A stretch of 51,739 nucleotides of DNA from Escherichia phage vB_EcoS_G29-2. Where the stretch lies: the sequence record NC_049822.1; one strand, given 5' to 3'. The translations under genes were made by a program, and so were the position numbers. The notes beneath the pieces are model-generated. The model made no database searches. It was not told the origin of the DNA and was given only the letters and a program-made list of their open reading frames with translations. Positions 15,245-51,739 of this stretch are shown piece by piece; position 1 is the first letter of the stretch; every line of letters begins with the position of its first letter.

Positions 15245-15266
15245 GTTTAACAAAAAATGCTATCAT
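15245..15266 (-). promoter_or_regulatory. motif copy in inverted orientation between head genes (function unclear)
   Basis: TTAACAAAAAATGCTAT on + strand; lacks the usual 19-bp spacing to a -10. Confidence 0.3.
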
Positions 15267-38037: not shown

Positions 38038-38511
38038 TTAGCAATTAGTGCTTTCAGGTTTATACAGGAATCCGCCAGGTTCATAATCTGACATTCTTAC
38101 CACTCGCAACATTTCACGCTTATCACATCTCTTTGTGAGCGGTTTGCCATTGGAATCAAATCGCAGATCTGGACGGCAGAATGACGCGCGATAGCCTTGA
38201 CAACCATATTTCTTGTAATCGTTATGCACCTTTTGAGCGCCAGCGGCTGAAATCATACCGCGAACGCGCCACTGATTTACAGTTTGCTGGCTAACGTTAA
38301 GACGCTTTGCCATTGCTGACACGCTGCCGTAATACTCAATAAGAATGTCAAGCCGTGCTTTTAGTCCGGCGCGCACTTCATCTTTTAAAACATAGTATCC
38401 TGTAGGGCGCTTGCGCTTTTTCTTATCTTTACCCCGTCGAGTTCCGTTATTGCCATTAATTGTGCGCTTGTCAATCTTGCCTGTTGATACCGCGATTCGC
38501 TGCTCTTTCAT
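38038..38511 (-). CDS. HTH DNA-binding protein (putative regulator)
   Basis: helix-turn-helix SVSAMAKRLNVSQQTVNQWRVRG; basic K/R-rich N-terminus. Confidence 0.6.
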   Translation of the reverse strand: MKEQRIAVSTGKIDKRTINGNNGTRRGKDKKKRKRPTGYYVLKDEVRAGLKARLDILIEYYGSVSAMAKRLNVSQQTVNQWRVRGMISAAGAQKVHNDYKKYGCQGYRASFCRPDLRFDSNGKPLTKRCDKREMLRVVRMSDYEPGGFLYKPESTNC

Positions 38512-38523
38512 TATTCATTCTCC

Positions 38524-38569
38524 AATAGCATTTTTTGTTAAACGATGATTTAATGATTGTGTATTATAC
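38524..38569 (+). promoter_or_regulatory. conserved motif promoter for helicase operon (no spacer hairpin, -10 TATTAT)
   Basis: CAATAGCATTTTTTGTTAAAC then 19 bp then TATTAT. Confidence 0.5.
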
Positions 38570-40640
38570 ACTCCAAATGGCATTACTCAAAGGTTTTAGA
38601 ATGATTCCAAACATTGAAAAGCAAATATCAGCACTTGGTGAAGCGGTAATTAAATCCATTCAGGAGCGGTTCACTGTTGGCGATATTGTGCCTTACCCTT
38701 ACCAGTGCGTTGCATACGCTGAGATCGCAAAGCGTATGAAAAATTATGAGCATCCATTCTTTGTTAAAGCGTCGGTATCGGCTGGCAAAACATTGATGTT
38801 TGCAATGGTTGCTCACCAGTGCCGGAAAATGGGCTTAAAAATGATGGTTCTTGCTCGCCAAGCTGAGATTGTGGATCAAGATTCTGAAGAGATAACAAAT
38901 CTTGGCGTGCCGAACTCAATCTATTGCGCAGGGCTGAAGACAAAGAGCGCATACTTTCCGATCGTTGTTGGTTCTGAGGGAACTGTAGTTAATGGACTGT
39001 TTAAAGCGCTTGGCGACTATGTTCCGCACGTTATCGGGATTGACGAGTGTCACCAGGTGGATTGGGAAGACCTTGCCGACGCCATAGAGAAAGATGAGTC
39101 ATTTTTACAAATGACGACAAAGAAAGGCGAAAGAGTACCAAATCCAGATTATGACATAGAGAGCGATAACGAGTGCGAAGAGTTCCTGATTGGTGAGGAT
39201 GGCTTGCCAATGGAGGGAACAGGCCGCACACAATACACTGTCATTATCATGGAAATGATGCGACGTTGCAGGAAAGCATATGGCCATGAACTGCGCATAT
39301 TTGGCATGACTGGATCGGAGTTTCGCGGTGTAGTCCCAATACTGGTAGAAGATAAAAAGCAGAAAGGATTTTGGCGTGAACAGGTTACTAATATTGACAC
39401 CAACTACCTGATCAAGTTCGGTTCTGTTGTTCCGACTAATTTTGGCGACGTTGGCGATCTCGGGTATGACCTTTCAGAGTTTGAGGCATCAAGCGAGGAT
39501 GGCGTTGCAGACTTTGACGCTAAAACGCTTCGCAGGATGGAACAAAAAATTCATGAAGAAGCGACCATGACAAAGCGCATCATGGCGAAAGTGCACGAGA
39601 TCTGTAAAAACCGTAACGGTGTACTTGTGACATGTGCAGGCGAAAGGCACTGTAAAGAGGCGGCGGCAGCATTGCCGCCTGGAACGACTTACAGGATCAT
39701 TACTGGTAAGACTGGCGATAACCAGCGCAAGGAGTGGTTGAAAGAAGCATACGAGGGAAAGGTTAAATACATCTTCCAGGTGCAGGCGCTAACTACTGGC
39801 GTTAACGTGCCGTTTTGGGATACGTCTGTTATTCTGCGTAAGATTGGATCTCTTACGTTGCTGATTCAGCTTTTAGGGCGCGGAATGCGACTGCTTAAGA
39901 AATGGCATAAGGAGCAAGGATTCAAGAAAGATGATCATCTCGTCATGGATTTTTCAGGAACGATGGACGAGCTAGGGGAGCTTTATTTTGATCCGATACT
40001 GGAACAGGCGCAGCACCAGAAGCGATTCAGAAATGGTAAAGATCCGAAGCCTTGTCCTGTTTGCGGAACTCTTAACAGCTATTATGCTCGTCGTTGTATG
40101 CACGTAGACGAAAACGGCAACAGATGCGAGTGGTTCTTTAAATTCAGGACATGTGATGATCAGATTGACCCGCGCACTAAAAAGATTATTCATCGCGGTT
40201 GCGGAACGAAGAATGATATTGCGGCCAGGGTATGCAGACATTGCGACATGTCATTGATTGACCCTAACGAGAAGTTAAGCGGAAAGCACTACACAAAAAA
40301 CGACTGGTTTCAGGTGCAATCTTTCTCGGTTGACATGACGAAAAACCAGAAAGGGATAATATTTAATTATGAGCTTTCCGATGGCATAGACACTTTCAGG
40401 GCGAGAGAGATATTTTTCCCTGAATCTGAGAGCCAAATTTGCCGCGCAAAATGGCGAAGCGTTGCTCTTAAGCACATACCAGATCGCCGTGTTGCTGGCA
40501 TGGTGGCGAGCTATCGTAATGCACGTAAAATCATGCAATATGTGAATCACATCATGCCACCATCGCGTGTAACTCACCGCAAGACTAGCAAGGGTGAAGA
40601 TAATTTGTACAAGAAGGACTTTAATTATGGCAATGACTGA
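38535..40640 (+). CDS. ATP-dependent helicase (SF2, DEAH-type) with C-terminal zinc ribbons
   Basis: Walker A SAGKT, DEAH-like IGIDECHQV, C-terminal CPVCG...C...C clusters; start uncertain (38535 TTG, ATG 38578 or 38601). Confidence 0.75.
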   Translation: MLNDDLMIVYYTLQMALLKGFRMIPNIEKQISALGEAVIKSIQERFTVGDIVPYPYQCVAYAEIAKRMKNYEHPFFVKASVSAGKTLMFAMVAHQCRKMGLKMMVLARQAEIVDQDSEEITNLGVPNSIYCAGLKTKSAYFPIVVGSEGTVVNGLFKALGDYVPHVIGIDECHQVDWEDLADAIEKDESFLQMTTKKGERVPNPDYDIESDNECEEFLIGEDGLPMEGTGRTQYTVIIMEMMRRCRKAYGHELRIFGMTGSEFRGVVPILVEDKKQKGFWREQVTNIDTNYLIKFGSVVPTNFGDVGDLGYDLSEFEASSEDGVADFDAKTLRRMEQKIHEEATMTKRIMAKVHEICKNRNGVLVTCAGERHCKEAAAALPPGTTYRIITGKTGDNQRKEWLKEAYEGKVKYIFQVQALTTGVNVPFWDTSVILRKIGSLTLLIQLLGRGMRLLKKWHKEQGFKKDDHLVMDFSGTMDELGELYFDPILEQAQHQKRFRNGKDPKPCPVCGTLNSYYARRCMHVDENGNRCEWFFKFRTCDDQIDPRTKKIIHRGCGTKNDIAARVCRHCDMSLIDPNEKLSGKHYTKNDWFQVQSFSVDMTKNQKGIIFNYELSDGIDTFRAREIFFPESESQICRAKWRSVALKHIPDRRVAGMVASYRNARKIMQYVNHIMPPSRVTHRKTSKGEDNLYKKDFNYGND

Positions 40641-44616: not shown

Positions 44617-45015
44617 ATGCGAAAGTTATCAATAATCGCTATCGCTGTTATTTTGTCTGGATGTTCAAGCGTTACGCCACTGACCGGATTAATCGGTAGT
44701 AAGCCGGAAATCACAGCACAGGCAGGAGCGGAGAACGTAAAGCAGACCGTTGGCGTTACCGCAAAGCAGGACACCAGCACAAAACAGGAAACTACAATAA
44801 AGGAATCTGCGGTTGATAAGGTGGACACTTCCAGCAAGAAGGATTTCACTACGTCAACCATTCAGGCCAATACCATCAAGGCTGATAAAATCCAGGTTGT
44901 GCAGGGTGAGCAAAGGAAGTGGTACGATCCCATAATCTATTGCGCTGCAATTTTTAGCGGTCTTTTGTCAATGCTTTACTTTTCCTACCGCAAAGGCAAC
45001 AAAAAGGAGGCTTAA
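44617..45015 (+). CDS. unimolecular spanin (lipoprotein with C-terminal TM)
   Basis: lipobox LSG-C plus C-terminal TM IIYCAAIFSGLLSMLYF; arrangement as in T1 gp11. Confidence 0.7.
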   Translation: MRKLSIIAIAVILSGCSSVTPLTGLIGSKPEITAQAGAENVKQTVGVTAKQDTSTKQETTIKESAVDKVDTSSKKDFTTSTIQANTIKADKIQVVQGEQRKWYDPIIYCAAIFSGLLSMLYFSYRKGNKKEA

Positions 45016-45030
45016 CGCCTCCTTTGTTTT
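45004..45030. terminator. bidirectional terminator at convergence of lysis cassette and leftward block
   Basis: AGGAGGC-TTAA-CGCCTCCT + TTGTTTT. Confidence 0.7.
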
Positions 45031-45282: not shown

Positions 45283-45328
45283 AAATATACCCGATACGAG
45301 ATCGGGAGTTTTAACAAAAAGTGCTATT
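45283..45328 (-). promoter_or_regulatory. conserved motif promoter (hairpin CCCGAT/ATCGGG, -10 ATATTT)
   Basis: minus-strand motif then 19 bp. Confidence 0.5.
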
Positions 45329-45518
45329 CGATACGCTTTACAGTAACCAACAAAACGCCGTCCTCATCACACAAATTATGCTCTGATATGTTAAACGCTC
45401 GCATGTCAGAATGAATTAGCGTTAACATTGCGTGCATGAAGTCTTCATGTGAGATTGAACTTACGGCGCAGAACTTCAATATTTTGTCTATTAGCATTTG
45501 ACGTAAACAGTTCTTCAT
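45324..45518 (-). CDS. small hypothetical protein (start uncertain)
   Basis: stop TAG embedded in motif copy; overlaps upstream gene unless started at internal ATG 45437. Confidence 0.3.
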   Translation of the reverse strand: MKNCLRQMLIDKILKFCAVSSISHEDFMHAMLTLIHSDMRAFNISEHNLCDEDGVLLVTVKRIE

Positions 45519-45837
45519 CGCTCATTTCTCCGATCCGTAAAACATCCCTAACCCATTCGTTTTGCATACCTTCCAGGCTGTAAAGTTCAAACGAGAAAGG
45601 GCGATTTGCGGATCCTTTCTTACACCAGAACTTTCCACCAACTCCATCAAGATAACCAGCGGTCATCATTCTTGCGCAAAACTCTTTTGAAACGGCAGTA
45701 GCAAACATTCTCTGCGTAAATCCTGCGGCCCTTGCGAGCCGCTCACATTCTCTATGCTGAAAGATAAATTTTGCTATATGTTGACGCGTAAACCATTCGA
45801 ATGACTCACACCAGCGATACAGATCCAGAAGAAACAT
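45445..45837 (-). CDS. hypothetical protein
   Basis: 130 aa, start coupled (TAATTATG) to stop of upstream gene. Confidence 0.55.
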   Translation of the reverse strand: MFLLDLYRWCESFEWFTRQHIAKFIFQHRECERLARAAGFTQRMFATAVSKEFCARMMTAGYLDGVGGKFWCKKGSANRPFSFELYSLEGMQNEWVRDVLRIGEMSDEELFTSNANRQNIEVLRRKFNLT

Positions 45838-45839
45838 AA

Positions 45840-47423
45840 TTACCCCAGCAATGTTGGATTTACAAAAACAACGCCATTAATCACACAAATATAATTTCTT
45901 TCTTCAAGCATCGGCAGCAGTTGCGTTTCCATACGCTTCATTACGCCAGCCTGGCCAACAAACGGCTTAACTTTTCGTGCAGCCTCATATATGGCGCGAA
46001 CATTCAAGATCCCCTTGTTAGCCTTACCGTGTCGAGTGATAATCTCGATTAGTTTACCCATTTCAGCATCATCACCAGCATAGCCAGAAGCGTTGGCGGC
46101 GCTAATGTATGTTTTGCTCAACTCGCTAAACATCAGCAGTGCTTCTTGAACGGTTTCAACTTCAATCTCTTTCGACTTCTGAGGGTATCCACCAGGATTA
46201 AACCAGTTGCGGATAGTGTGCAAAACCGAAGCAATCCTGATCACCTGCTTATCCATTTTGCCAAGAGCACCGCGCAGCATTGTATGCGAATACTTTCCGC
46301 CATCAGCAAGGTGCGGCTCCATCTCCTGACGAGCTATGTTAAGAACTCGCATTGCTGATTTGCTGATCTTAAGCTGGATGTTTGATTCACTCATGATGTT
46401 ATGGATCAGCTTAAAATATTGACTTTTCAGTTCTCCATCAACAGGCTCATAAGTAGAATCACCGTTATCATCAACAAACTTTCGACGACCTAAAAATGAT
46501 TCCTCACGCACAAGCAAATAACGCTCACTCACACCGATACCGCGCGATCCTGCATCCATGATGGCATTGATTGTTTCATCCTGGGCAATCACCGCCATAC
46601 AGCCAAGAGCTTTAAAACTCATATTGTTGTCAGCGTTTGCACGAGCTATAGAAACATGACCATGATCCCATGCTTTCAGCACAAGTTCGCTGTTGGTTTT
46701 ACGTTCGCTATTAGCATATGTCAGACCTAAAAGGCTGTTAATACTCGTTGCCTCGTCTGAAATCACAGCAAAGTTACCCTGGCGATTGTTGATTCTTGCA
46801 AGTCCTTCCGGCGTGGTGTCGGACACAGGGAAAACAATGTCACACATCTTTTCCAGTTTTTCTTCCAGATCTTCTTTCTCCTGGTACAGAGATTCCATAT
46901 CAGCGCCGGAGCGCTCGCTTTTCATCTCTTTTGCAAGACCTGCCAACTTTGCCTGAATCTTTTTTCTTTCCTTCTTTCGCTGATCGTTAATTCTTTCCAC
47001 TTCTGCAACCATTGGAGCAAGTGCCAGGCTGTTAACGGCAGATTTACCAGTTGAAGGAGGCTGGCTTGTGACAACATAAAGAGCGGTCGGCTGATCCGTT
47101 CCGTGATACTCAACCGTGAAGCGTCCAAGCATTGCAGCAGACACGCAGCCGATAAAATGCATATATGCCGATGATTCAGGGAACTGAACTGAGCGAGCAA
47201 TGTTGCGCGCCAACTTACCAACAACATCAACATCATTGCCAAGAGAAATTACAGGGTAGCGATCATTTCCGTTATTAACATCATTAACCTCACCCCAAAA
47301 GCTGGACGATTGACGGTATCCGTTTGCCTGAATGGACACGCGCACCGGAGACAATCCTTGTGCATCAGCTAATTCGATAATTTGTTTTGGTGTTAGTTTG
47401 TTGGTTTCAAACGAAAAATTCAT
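45840..47423 (-). CDS. P-loop NTPase-containing protein (putative replication-associated)
   Basis: 527 aa from RBS-supported ATG (GGAG); Walker A-like SQPPSTGKSA. Confidence 0.6.
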   Translation of the reverse strand: MNFSFETNKLTPKQIIELADAQGLSPVRVSIQANGYRQSSSFWGEVNDVNNGNDRYPVISLGNDVDVVGKLARNIARSVQFPESSAYMHFIGCVSAAMLGRFTVEYHGTDQPTALYVVTSQPPSTGKSAVNSLALAPMVAEVERINDQRKKERKKIQAKLAGLAKEMKSERSGADMESLYQEKEDLEEKLEKMCDIVFPVSDTTPEGLARINNRQGNFAVISDEATSINSLLGLTYANSERKTNSELVLKAWDHGHVSIARANADNNMSFKALGCMAVIAQDETINAIMDAGSRGIGVSERYLLVREESFLGRRKFVDDNGDSTYEPVDGELKSQYFKLIHNIMSESNIQLKISKSAMRVLNIARQEMEPHLADGGKYSHTMLRGALGKMDKQVIRIASVLHTIRNWFNPGGYPQKSKEIEVETVQEALLMFSELSKTYISAANASGYAGDDAEMGKLIEIITRHGKANKGILNVRAIYEAARKVKPFVGQAGVMKRMETQLLPMLEERNYICVINGVVFVNPTLLG

Positions 47424-47452
47424 TGATGATAACTCCTTTTTTTGATGCGGCA

Positions 47453-47497
47453 ATAATACCGCACCAATGCTACCCGCATTTAACAAAAAATGCTATT
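47453..47497 (-). promoter_or_regulatory. conserved motif promoter (variant, -10 TATTAT in hairpin loop)
   Basis: AATAGCATTTTTTGTTAAAT then 19 bp then TATTAT. Confidence 0.5.
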
Positions 47498-51658: not shown

Positions 51659-51739
51659 ATCATTCGCGATCACCTGGATTGTGAGACTTTGAGTTTGATC
51701 AATTTTAATCAAGTGATTAACTTTTTGTGTGGAGGGGAT

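What the first reader, a model, noticed from the sequence alone, without database searches (positions are those of the whole stretch)
45840..47423. Large P-loop protein of unclear function in the leftward block
The 527-aa protein has a Walker A-like SQPPSTGKSA in mid-sequence and a long coiled-coil and basic region. It is separate from the SF2 helicase and primase on the other arm, so a second NTPase is present. Possibilities include a replication initiator or helicase loader, or a defence or anti-defence ATPase.
Basis: inference. Interest (0 to 1): 0.5.

Follow-up and report, generated by a model that had tools for sequence, protein, structure and literature searches.

The report
T1-type phage MCM-like DUF3987 helicase
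The gene encodes the DUF3987-family, MCM-like ring-helicase ATPase found across T1-like coliphages, most likely the phage's own replication-fork helicase; public records already label it "DNA helicase", so the finding is real but ordinary.

Summary
Window 45840..47423 (-) is a 527-aa ORF with a good ribosome-binding site, the Walker A stretch SQPPSTGKSA (residues 120-129) and a charged helical hairpin (129-192).

The window is a Hanrivervirus (Drexlerviridae, T1-like). The gene is 99.8% identical to Escherichia phage egaa gp12, labelled "DNA helicase", and is the syntenic ortholog of T1 ST9 (58% identity).

Relatives are fused to primase or DnaB N-terminal domains, or lie beside or overlap a primase gene. 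The literature predicts DUF3987 proteins as SF6 replicative helicases, and one member is a proven 5'-3' helicase. No defence family matches, and I found no other ring helicase, loader or polymerase in the phage.

Best reading: the replicative helicase working with the phage primase and host Pol III (inferred). The loader or defence readings are not favoured. Already known; low interest.

The parts
45840..47423 (-). CDS of the 527-aa DUF3987 / MCM-like AAA+ helicase (stop codon 45840-45842)
47433..47438 (-). Ribosome-binding site AAGGAG, 9 nt before the ATG
47479..47497 (-). One copy (1 mismatch) of the T1-group intergenic repeat AATAGCAyTTTTTGTTAAA, 56 nt upstream of the ATG. A known element of unknown function, probably transcriptional.
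   Evidence: 17 copies, 0.04 expected; described for TLS/T1/Rtp in PMC11447400
47184..47423 (-). N-terminal region, residues 1-80: three short helices, a poorly structured linker and a fourth helix (67-79). It lies outside the Pfam domain, is conserved in the 510-530-aa subfamily, and has no OB fold.
46131..47180 (-). Pfam DUF3987 domain match (residues 82-431): AAA+ core plus lid
47037..47066 (-). Walker A / P-loop SQPPSTGKSA. Family signature QPxxxGK[ST]; K127 present in 133/133 relatives.
46848..47039 (-). Charged antiparallel helical hairpin (residues 129-192). It extends the P-loop helix and is a family-wide insertion between Walker A and Walker B.
   Evidence: (Walker A Lys to Walker B Glu distance: median 97 residues)
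46752..46772 (-). Walker B strand FAVISDE. E224 is invariant (150/150); D223 is variable in the family.
46611..46658 (-). Beta-hairpin (residues 256-271) just before the sensor-1 strand, with invariant R261 near its flexible tip. Candidate pre-sensor-1 DNA-binding hairpin.
   Evidence: the functional role is inferred
46575..46604 (-). Sensor-1 strand GCMAVIAQDE. Q281 is conserved in 148/149 relatives.
46518..46529 (-). SERY motif at the start of beta5. R301 is invariant; candidate arginine finger, analogous to the MCM 'SRF' motif.
   Evidence: the analogy is an inference
46248..46277 (-). Lid-domain motif LRGALGKMDK (R384, G385, K389 conserved). Candidate sensor 2.
   Evidence: inference
45843..46076 (-). 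C-terminal winged-helix domain (residues about 450-527)
45445..45837 (-). Downstream 130-aa ORF whose ATG starts 2 nt after the helicase stop codon (TAA-TT-ATG). Ortholog of T1 ST10; function unknown; possibly translationally coupled to the helicase gene.
37049..38044 (-). Phage primase (Zn_Ribbon_Prim; N-terminal half of primase-helicase PHROG 510, no helicase domain). Inferred partner of the helicase.
   Evidence: primase adjacent to or overlapping the DUF3987 gene in relatives
38535..40640 (+). SF2 helicase (ResIII/Helicase_C), followed by a VRR-NUC nuclease.

Best explanation
The gene encodes the conserved Drexlerviridae member of the DUF3987 family. It is an AAA+ ATPase whose motor domain has the MCM (superfamily 6) fold. 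It has a short helical N-terminal region, a charged helical hairpin growing out of the P-loop helix, and a C-terminal winged-helix domain.

Most likely it assembles into a ring (inferred) and uses ATP hydrolysis to translocate on single-stranded DNA and open the phage replication fork. The inferred catalytic elements are K127/S128, E224, Q281 as sensor 1, R301 as a trans arginine finger, and a beta-hairpin carrying R261.

It would work with the separately encoded Zn-ribbon primase and with host DNA polymerase III, since the phage has no polymerase gene. The winged helix may help it load at a still unmapped origin.

Shown here: family membership, fold, motif conservation, genomic linkage to primases in relatives, and the absence of any other detectable ring-helicase candidate.

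Inferred: oligomeric state, helicase activity and polarity, the partnership with the primase, and essentiality.
For: - Family assignment: Pfam DUF3987, 149.4 bits against a cut-off of 27, E 2e-43, covering HMM positions 3-350 of 364. PHROG 2373 'DNA helicase', E 1e-245.
- Catalytic residues near-invariant in 155 divergent representatives: K127 133/133, S/T128, E224 150/150, R261 151/151, Q281 148/149, R301 148/148, K389 148/148.
- Fusions in relatives: DnaG zinc ribbon, DnaB N-terminal domain, BT4734 AEP primase. BFVD fold hits include PrimPol and Toprim fusions.
- Gene order in relatives at 35-38% identity: regulator -> primase -> DUF3987 with a 4-nt overlap (L005/L006); DUF3987 -> DnaG-type primase -> SF2 helicase (L004); DUF3987, primase, SF2 helicase and SSB within 8 kb in Vibrio phage pYD38-A.
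- The phage's own primase lacks a helicase domain. No DnaB, DnaC or polymerase was found in the annotation or in the other larger ORFs scanned.
- Conservation: syntenic ortholog in T1, ST9, 58% identity. Matches in 919 phage records.
- Literature: DUF3987 predicted as an SF6 replicative helicase with a C-terminal wHTH (PMC4889955). The PriCT-DUF3987 protein AgaPH is an ATP/dATP-dependent 5'-3' helicase that needs Walker A and B and binds its primase (PMC11724360).
Against: - There is no experiment on any Drexlerviridae member.
- In this genome the gene is not next to the primase. It sits about 8 kb away in a block of small early genes.
- The Walker motifs are deviant: Q replaces the canonical G/A, and the Walker B Asp is not conserved in the family.
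- There is no sequence-level match to MCM (PF00493) or to any solved structure.
- There is no OB-fold N-terminal domain and no obvious helix-2 insert.
- The phage also has an SF2 helicase that some authors treat as the replication helicase (PMC11447400).
- No origin-like iterons were found near the gene.
Confidence: 0.75

Rival explanations
1. Origin-binding initiator or helicase loader. The AAA+ module and winged helix would recognise the phage origin and recruit or load host DnaB, in the manner of DnaC or a lambda O/P-type system, rather than unwinding DNA themselves.
For: There is a C-terminal winged helix of the kind used by Orc/Cdc6 and SaPI Rep initiators. The phage relies on host polymerase. 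The gene is expressed in an early block.
Confidence: 0.1
2. Recombination or repair motor. A ring AAA+ translocase that drives branch migration or restart of recombination-dependent replication, like RuvB, ComM or MCM8/9, and not the fork helicase.
Against: In relatives the gene is beside or overlaps the primase gene, or the two are fused, rather than lying with the recombinases. The SF2 helicase plus VRR-NUC pair is the more natural fork-remodelling or repair module. This reading would leave the phage primase without a ring helicase.
Confidence: 0.1
3. Defence or anti-defence (host-takeover) ATPase carried in the accessory early region.
Against: PADLOC gives no family hit, only a coiled-coil artefact to JetC at E 0.005. 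The gene is conserved in sequence and position from T1 to Klebsiella Webervirus-type phages, with matches in 919 records, unlike typical accessory genes. It is linked to primases across the family.
Confidence: 0.03

Closest known systems
Escherichia phage T1 ST9 and the egaa/herni gp12 'DNA helicase' (Drexlerviridae orthologs)
   Same: 99.8% nucleotide identity to egaa gp12. 58% amino-acid identity over the full length to T1 ST9, in the same position after the lysis cassette, followed by the ST10 ortholog.
   Different: Nothing of substance; this is the same gene. None of these orthologs has been studied experimentally, as far as the searchable literature shows.
AgaPH, the PriCT-DUF3987 helicase of a Seonamhaeicola mobile element (PMC11724360)
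   Same: DUF3987 ATPase domain with Walker A and B motifs and a small C-terminal domain. Encoded together with a primase. AgaPH is oligomeric and is an ATP/dATP-dependent helicase.
   Different: AgaPH has an N-terminal PriCT domain and partners an adjacent AEP PrimPol. The phage protein has an unrelated 80-residue N-terminal region with no PriCT hit. Its presumed partner is a Zn-ribbon (T7/P4-type) primase encoded 8 kb away. Activity and 5'-3' polarity are untested for the phage protein.
Archaeal/eukaryotic MCM (superfamily 6 replicative helicases)
   Different: 10-17% identity and no PF00493 hit. No OB-fold/zinc N-terminal domain. Q-type Walker A. The Walker B Asp is not conserved. A helical hairpin follows alpha1 and no helix-2 insert is evident. 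The one assayed DUF3987 helicase runs 5'-3', opposite to MCM.
SaPI Rep/PriRep5 and SCCmec Cch self-loading initiator-helicases (PMC9371898, PMC7581432)
   Different: Much weaker structural match than to MCM. SaPI Reps bind iterons just downstream of rep and run 3'-5'. No iterons were found near the phage gene.
Phage N4 dns (gp43)
   Same: Reported as a DUF3987-type helicase domain fused to a primase and essential for N4 replication (PMC4889955). Pfam finds a collinear DUF3987 match plus PriCT_1.
   Different: The match is only sub-threshold (24.2 bits against a cut-off of 27). hhalign against the T1-group profile is not significant. In N4 gp43 the primase part is C-terminal and fused.

Membership tests
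Pfam DUF3987 (PF13148) | Full-length domain match above the curated gathering score | tested here: met
   149.4 bits against a cut-off of 27, E 2e-43, residues 82-431 on HMM positions 3-350 of 364
Pfam DUF3987 (PF13148) | Conserved Walker A (QPxxxGK[ST]) and Walker B Glu | tested here: met
   Q121, P122, K127, S128 and E224 are present, and are near-invariant in 155 representatives
Pfam DUF3987 (PF13148) | [quoted passage not shown] | tested here: met
Pfam DUF3987 (PF13148) | Typical, not defining: fused to a primase or encoded next to one | tested here: inconclusive
   A primase is present in the genome but about 8 kb away on the other arm. The genes are adjacent, overlapping or fused in relatives.
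Pfam DUF3987 (PF13148) | ATP-dependent DNA unwinding (shown for AgaPH) | not testable with these tools
   Needs purified protein. Only AgaPH has been assayed.
MCM family proper (PF00493; SF6 in the strict sense) | Sequence-level match to the MCM AAA+ domain | tested here: not met
   No PF00493 hit at E <= 1. No MCM chain was found by phmmer or by a profile search of the PDB.
MCM family proper (PF00493; SF6 in the strict sense) | MCM-type AAA+ fold | tested here: met
MCM family proper (PF00493; SF6 in the strict sense) | N-terminal OB-fold/zinc domain | tested here: not met
   Residues 1-100 are modelled as helices and loop only
MCM family proper (PF00493; SF6 in the strict sense) | Pre-sensor-1 beta-hairpin and helix-2 insert | tested here: inconclusive
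   A beta-hairpin at 256-271 with invariant R261 precedes the sensor-1 strand. Helix alpha2 (205-215) shows no insert; instead a helical hairpin follows alpha1. Only the DSSP string was available, not the coordinates.
MCM family proper (PF00493; SF6 in the strict sense) | SRF-type arginine finger at the start of beta5 | tested here: met
   S299-E300-R301-Y302 at the start of strand 302-306. R301 is 148/148 in relatives. Its catalytic role is inferred.
DnaB/SF4 RecA-fold replicative helicases | RecA-type motor domain | tested here: not met
DnaA/DnaC/Orc-Cdc6 initiator-loader clade of AAA+ | ATPase module of the initiator clade | tested here: not met
Known anti-phage defence ATPases (PADLOC-DB) | Match to any defence-system protein model | tested here: not met
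   The only hit is a coiled-coil match to JetC, E 0.005, 12.5 bits, residues 140-199

The most novel reading that the evidence does not exclude
The T1-type DUF3987 protein may be a self-loading initiator-helicase. Its winged helix would find a still unmapped phage origin, and the ring would load without a loader. Despite its MCM-like fold it would translocate 5'-3' like DnaB, as AgaPH does. The charged helical hairpin or the N-terminal region would dock the phage primase. Together these would make T1 replication independent of host DnaA, DnaB, DnaC and DnaG.
Probability: 0.3. Interest if true: 0.5.

Novelty: already known. Interest (0 to 1): 0.2.

Why it matters
T1-like phages are classic, abundant coliphages and common laboratory and fermentation contaminants. 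Their replication machinery has never been worked out; a 2024 re-annotation of phage TLS still discusses only the SF2 helicase and the primase (PMC11447400).

If this protein is the fork helicase, Drexlerviridae would be a tractable E. coli system for studying a bacterial-virus MCM-like motor. No DUF3987 structure exists, and this motor has an unusual P-loop, a helical-hairpin insertion and possibly reversed polarity.

That is useful, but it is incremental. The family-level prediction dates from 2016, a member was validated in 2025, and the database annotation already says helicase.

Tried and rejected
- Sequence searches of the PDB, with the single protein and with a 21-sequence profile, found no related solved structure.
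- NCBIfam gave nothing meaningful.
- The Pfam WWC1 hit and the PADLOC JetC hit are coiled-coil artefacts of the hairpin.
- hhalign of the T1-group profile against N4 gp43 was not significant. N4 dns is therefore only a distant, sub-threshold relative.
- I looked for origin-like iterons in and around the gene, in the AT-rich region at the window ends, and in the intergenic gaps flanking the gene in three relatives. I found only short two-copy matches, nothing convincing.
- The sigma-70 and terminator scans were at or near background for promoters.
- Literature searches found nothing usable on Drexlerviridae helicase escape mutants, essentiality screens, classical T1 genes 1 and 2, or host dna-gene dependence. 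I therefore could not link the gene to T1 DNA-negative mutants.
- Supplementary tables of PMC4889955 are not held.
- The 548-aa TTG-initiated version of the ORF was rejected, because of the RBS before the ATG and the lengths of homologs.
- No small neighbouring protein is conserved with the helicase beyond Drexlerviridae.

Full report
**Observation.** The window carries a long leftward ORF at 45840..47486.
- It has an AAGGAG ribosome-binding site 9 nt upstream.
- SQPPSTGKSA is at residues 120-129, nearer the first quarter than the middle.
- The "coiled-coil and basic region" is a real feature. The structure model has helices 127-168 and 173-192. The first is K/R-rich and the second D/E-rich.
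- The SF2 helicase (38535..40640, +) and the primase (37049..38044, -) are indeed about 8 kb away.

**Where the window comes from.** The gene is 99.8% identical in DNA to gp12 of Escherichia phage egaa (Hanrivervirus, Tempevirinae, Drexlerviridae).
- Orthologs are annotated "DNA helicase", "putative helicase", "hypothetical protein" or "DUF3987 domain-containing protein".
- Phage T1 has a syntenic ortholog, ST9. It is 58% identical over the full length and also lies just after the holin-endolysin-spanin cassette in a leftward early block.
- A tblastn search finds matches in 919 phage records, mostly Klebsiella, Escherichia, Salmonella and Shigella phages.

**What the protein is.**
- Pfam DUF3987 matches at 149.4 bits (cut-off 27, E 2e-43) over residues 82-431. 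PHROG 2373 "DNA helicase" matches end to end (E 1e-245).
- No solved structure is detectable by sequence, even with a profile.
- An AlphaFold2 model built on a 21-sequence alignment is confident (pLDDT 86.8, pTM 0.85).
  - These are followed by other AAA+ proteins: RavA 12.0, BchI 10.6, Cch 9.1, ComM 8.8, BrxL 8.7 and SaPI5 PriRep 8.3.
  - Separately there are short alignments to winged-helix domains or chains (ORC2, Cdc6, cullin, Scc1, ScpA), which I attribute to the C-terminus.
- Foldseek agrees: all 15 hits at E <= 0.001 are MCM-containing complexes.
- The architecture is therefore a short helical N-terminal region (1-80), an MCM-like AAA+ core and lid (about 100-445), and a winged helix (about 450-527). 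There is no OB-fold N-terminal domain and no sequence-level match to PF00493. It works like an MCM-type motor but is not a member of the MCM family proper.

**Motifs.** A profile search of 1.84 billion representative proteins finds 5836 family clusters at E <= 0.001. I aligned 155 of the best representatives to the profile.
- Near-invariant positions:
  - Q121-P122 and K127-S/T128: a Q-type Walker A, QPxxxGK[ST]
  - T204 and E206
  - S222 and E224: the Walker B Glu, 150/150
  - R261
  - Q281, at the end of the sensor-1 strand
  - E300-R301, at the start of beta5
  - E307, G312 and R314
  - K389
- Oddly, the canonical Walker B Asp (D223 here) is D in 61, A in 54 and S in 28 of the 150 aligned sequences.
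- R261 sits in a beta-hairpin (256-271) with a flexible tip just before the sensor-1 strand. This is the position of the pre-sensor-1 hairpin that MCM and related motors use to grip DNA (inference).
- S-E-R301-Y/F resembles the MCM SRF arginine finger in sequence and in position (inference).
- The distance from the Walker A Lys to the Walker B Glu is 76-114 residues (median 97). The helical hairpin is therefore a family-wide insertion that extends the P-loop helix. It is not an MCM-type helix-2 insert.
- The catalytic apparatus is under strong purifying selection, so this is an active ATPase and not a decayed P-loop.

**Context and relatives.**
- Long relatives carry N-terminal DnaG zinc ribbons, a DnaB N-terminal (primase-binding) domain, or BT4734-type AEP primase domains. 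BFVD fold hits include PrimPol and Toprim fusions.
- Relatives at 35-38% identity keep the gene in a replication module:
  - L005/L006: YdaS/Cro-like regulator -> Zn_Ribbon_Prim primase -> DUF3987, with a 4-nt overlap. SF2 helicase, DUF3799, ERF and SSB lie divergently.
  - L004: DUF3987 -> DnaG-type primase -> SF2 helicase -> DUF3799.
  - Vibrio phage pYD38-A: DUF3987, primase, SF2 helicase and SSB within 8 kb.
- The window has the same regulator -> primase pair at 38511..37049 (-). A tail-fibre gene follows the primase, and the DUF3987 gene sits in the leftward early block. The Drexlerviridae arrangement therefore looks like a split version of that operon.
- The phage primase is only the N-terminal half of primase-helicase proteins (PHROG 510 positions 3-316 of 667).
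- No DnaB, DnaC-like loader or DNA polymerase is annotated or detectable in the other larger ORFs scanned.

**Literature.**
- Kazlauskas et al. 2016 (PMC4889955) assigned phage DUF3987 proteins to SF6. They described them as distantly related to MCM, with a C-terminal wHTH and frequent association with primases, and proposed them as replicative helicases.
- The 2018 AEP survey (PMC5862659) made the same prediction.
- A 2025 study (PMC11724360) showed that a PriCT-DUF3987 protein, AgaPH, is an oligomeric ATP/dATP-dependent 5'-3' helicase. It needs Walker A and B and binds its primase.
- The 2024 TLS re-annotation (PMC11447400) discusses only the SF2 helicase and the primase for replication. The assignment is therefore not widely appreciated among T1-group workers, although RefSeq uses it.

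**Mechanism and rivals.**
- Most likely (0.75): this is the phage's replicative ring helicase, acting with the phage primase and host Pol III. The winged helix may add an origin-recognition or self-loading role, as in SaPI Rep proteins.
- A loader or initiator for host DnaB (0.1) is disfavoured by the MCM-type motor fold, the hairpin Arg and the DnaB-N fusion.
- A recombination or branch-migration motor (0.1) is disfavoured by the linkage to primases, and by the presence of an SF2 helicase plus VRR-NUC pair better suited to that job.
- A defence or anti-defence ATPase (0.03) has no support.
- Oligomeric state, activity, polarity, primase contact and essentiality are all inferred. I found no iterons or other origin signature near the gene. 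I could not retrieve classical T1 genetics to link ST9 to the DNA-negative genes 1 or 2.

**Verdict.** The protein belongs to a known, already annotated family: the DUF3987, MCM-like SF6 helicases. Novelty: already known. Interest: low (0.2). The residual value is that no DUF3987 structure exists and the T1 replisome is still uncharacterised.

Noticed in passing
window 47479-47497 (-). Other copies start at 1254, 1718, 2765, 4063, 6766, 38524, 41042, 42062 (+) and at 45310, 48155, 50205, 50711, 51587 (-). Antisense copies start at 15246, 19006, 29673.: A 19-nt repeat, AATAGCACTTTTTGTTAAA, occurs 17 times at up to 3 mismatches (0.04 expected). 14 copies point the same way as the local early genes, and one lies 56 nt upstream of the helicase ATG. 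It matches the 21-nt intergenic direct repeat reported for TLS, T1 and Rtp, whose function is unknown (PMC11447400).
   Followed up: partly
window 45445-45837 (-): A 130-aa ORF starts 2 nt after the helicase stop codon (TAA-TT-ATG). It aligns over residues 1-127 with T1 ST10 (50% identity). The 87-aa 'YdbL' CDS in the egaa RefSeq record therefore looks N-terminally truncated. PHROG 2794, function unknown; possibly translationally coupled to the helicase.
   Followed up: partly
L005 6811-9542, L006 987-3718, compared with window 37049-38511 (-): Metagenomic relatives have an intact operon: YdaS/Cro-like regulator -> Zn-ribbon primase -> DUF3987. Drexlerviridae keep regulator -> primase, but a tail-fibre gene follows the primase and the DUF3987 gene is on the other arm. 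This suggests a past rearrangement of the replication module.
   Followed up: partly
window 46752-46772 and 47037-47066 (-), and 155 family representatives: The family-wide Walker motifs are deviant. Walker A starts with Q, not G/A. The canonical Walker B Asp is D in 61, A in 54 and S in 28 of 150 aligned relatives, while the following Glu is invariant. A 'TPE' motif (T204, E206) is almost invariant and unexplained.
   Followed up: partly
GenBank MG065638, MG065663, MG065665, MG065667, MG065670, MG065671 and others: About 20 records named 'Campylobacter phage A15a/A134/A131...', with host given as Campylobacter jejuni, carry this gene at 96.7% nucleotide identity to E. coli T1-like phages. They are probably coliphage contaminants or mislabelled records.
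   Followed up: no
window about 51713-51739 and 1-519: An AT-rich stretch with no long ORF lies between the divergent leftward and rightward early blocks. It has several imperfect direct and inverted TATATA-type repeats (for example 127-152 / 177-202). It could hold early promoters, the pac site or an origin.
   Followed up: partly
window 45003-45025: A strong hairpin (9 bp, AAAGGAGGC...GCCTCCTTT) has T-runs on both sides. It lies between the end of the spanin gene (+) and the end of the leftward block (-) and is likely a bidirectional terminator.
   Followed up: no
L007 13315-15459 (phage N4 gp43): N4 gp43, annotated 'DNA primase' and presumably the dns gene, has a collinear but sub-threshold DUF3987 match (24.2 bits against a cut-off of 27) plus a C-terminal PriCT_1 domain. 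This agrees with the helicase-then-primase fusion described in PMC4889955.
   Followed up: partly
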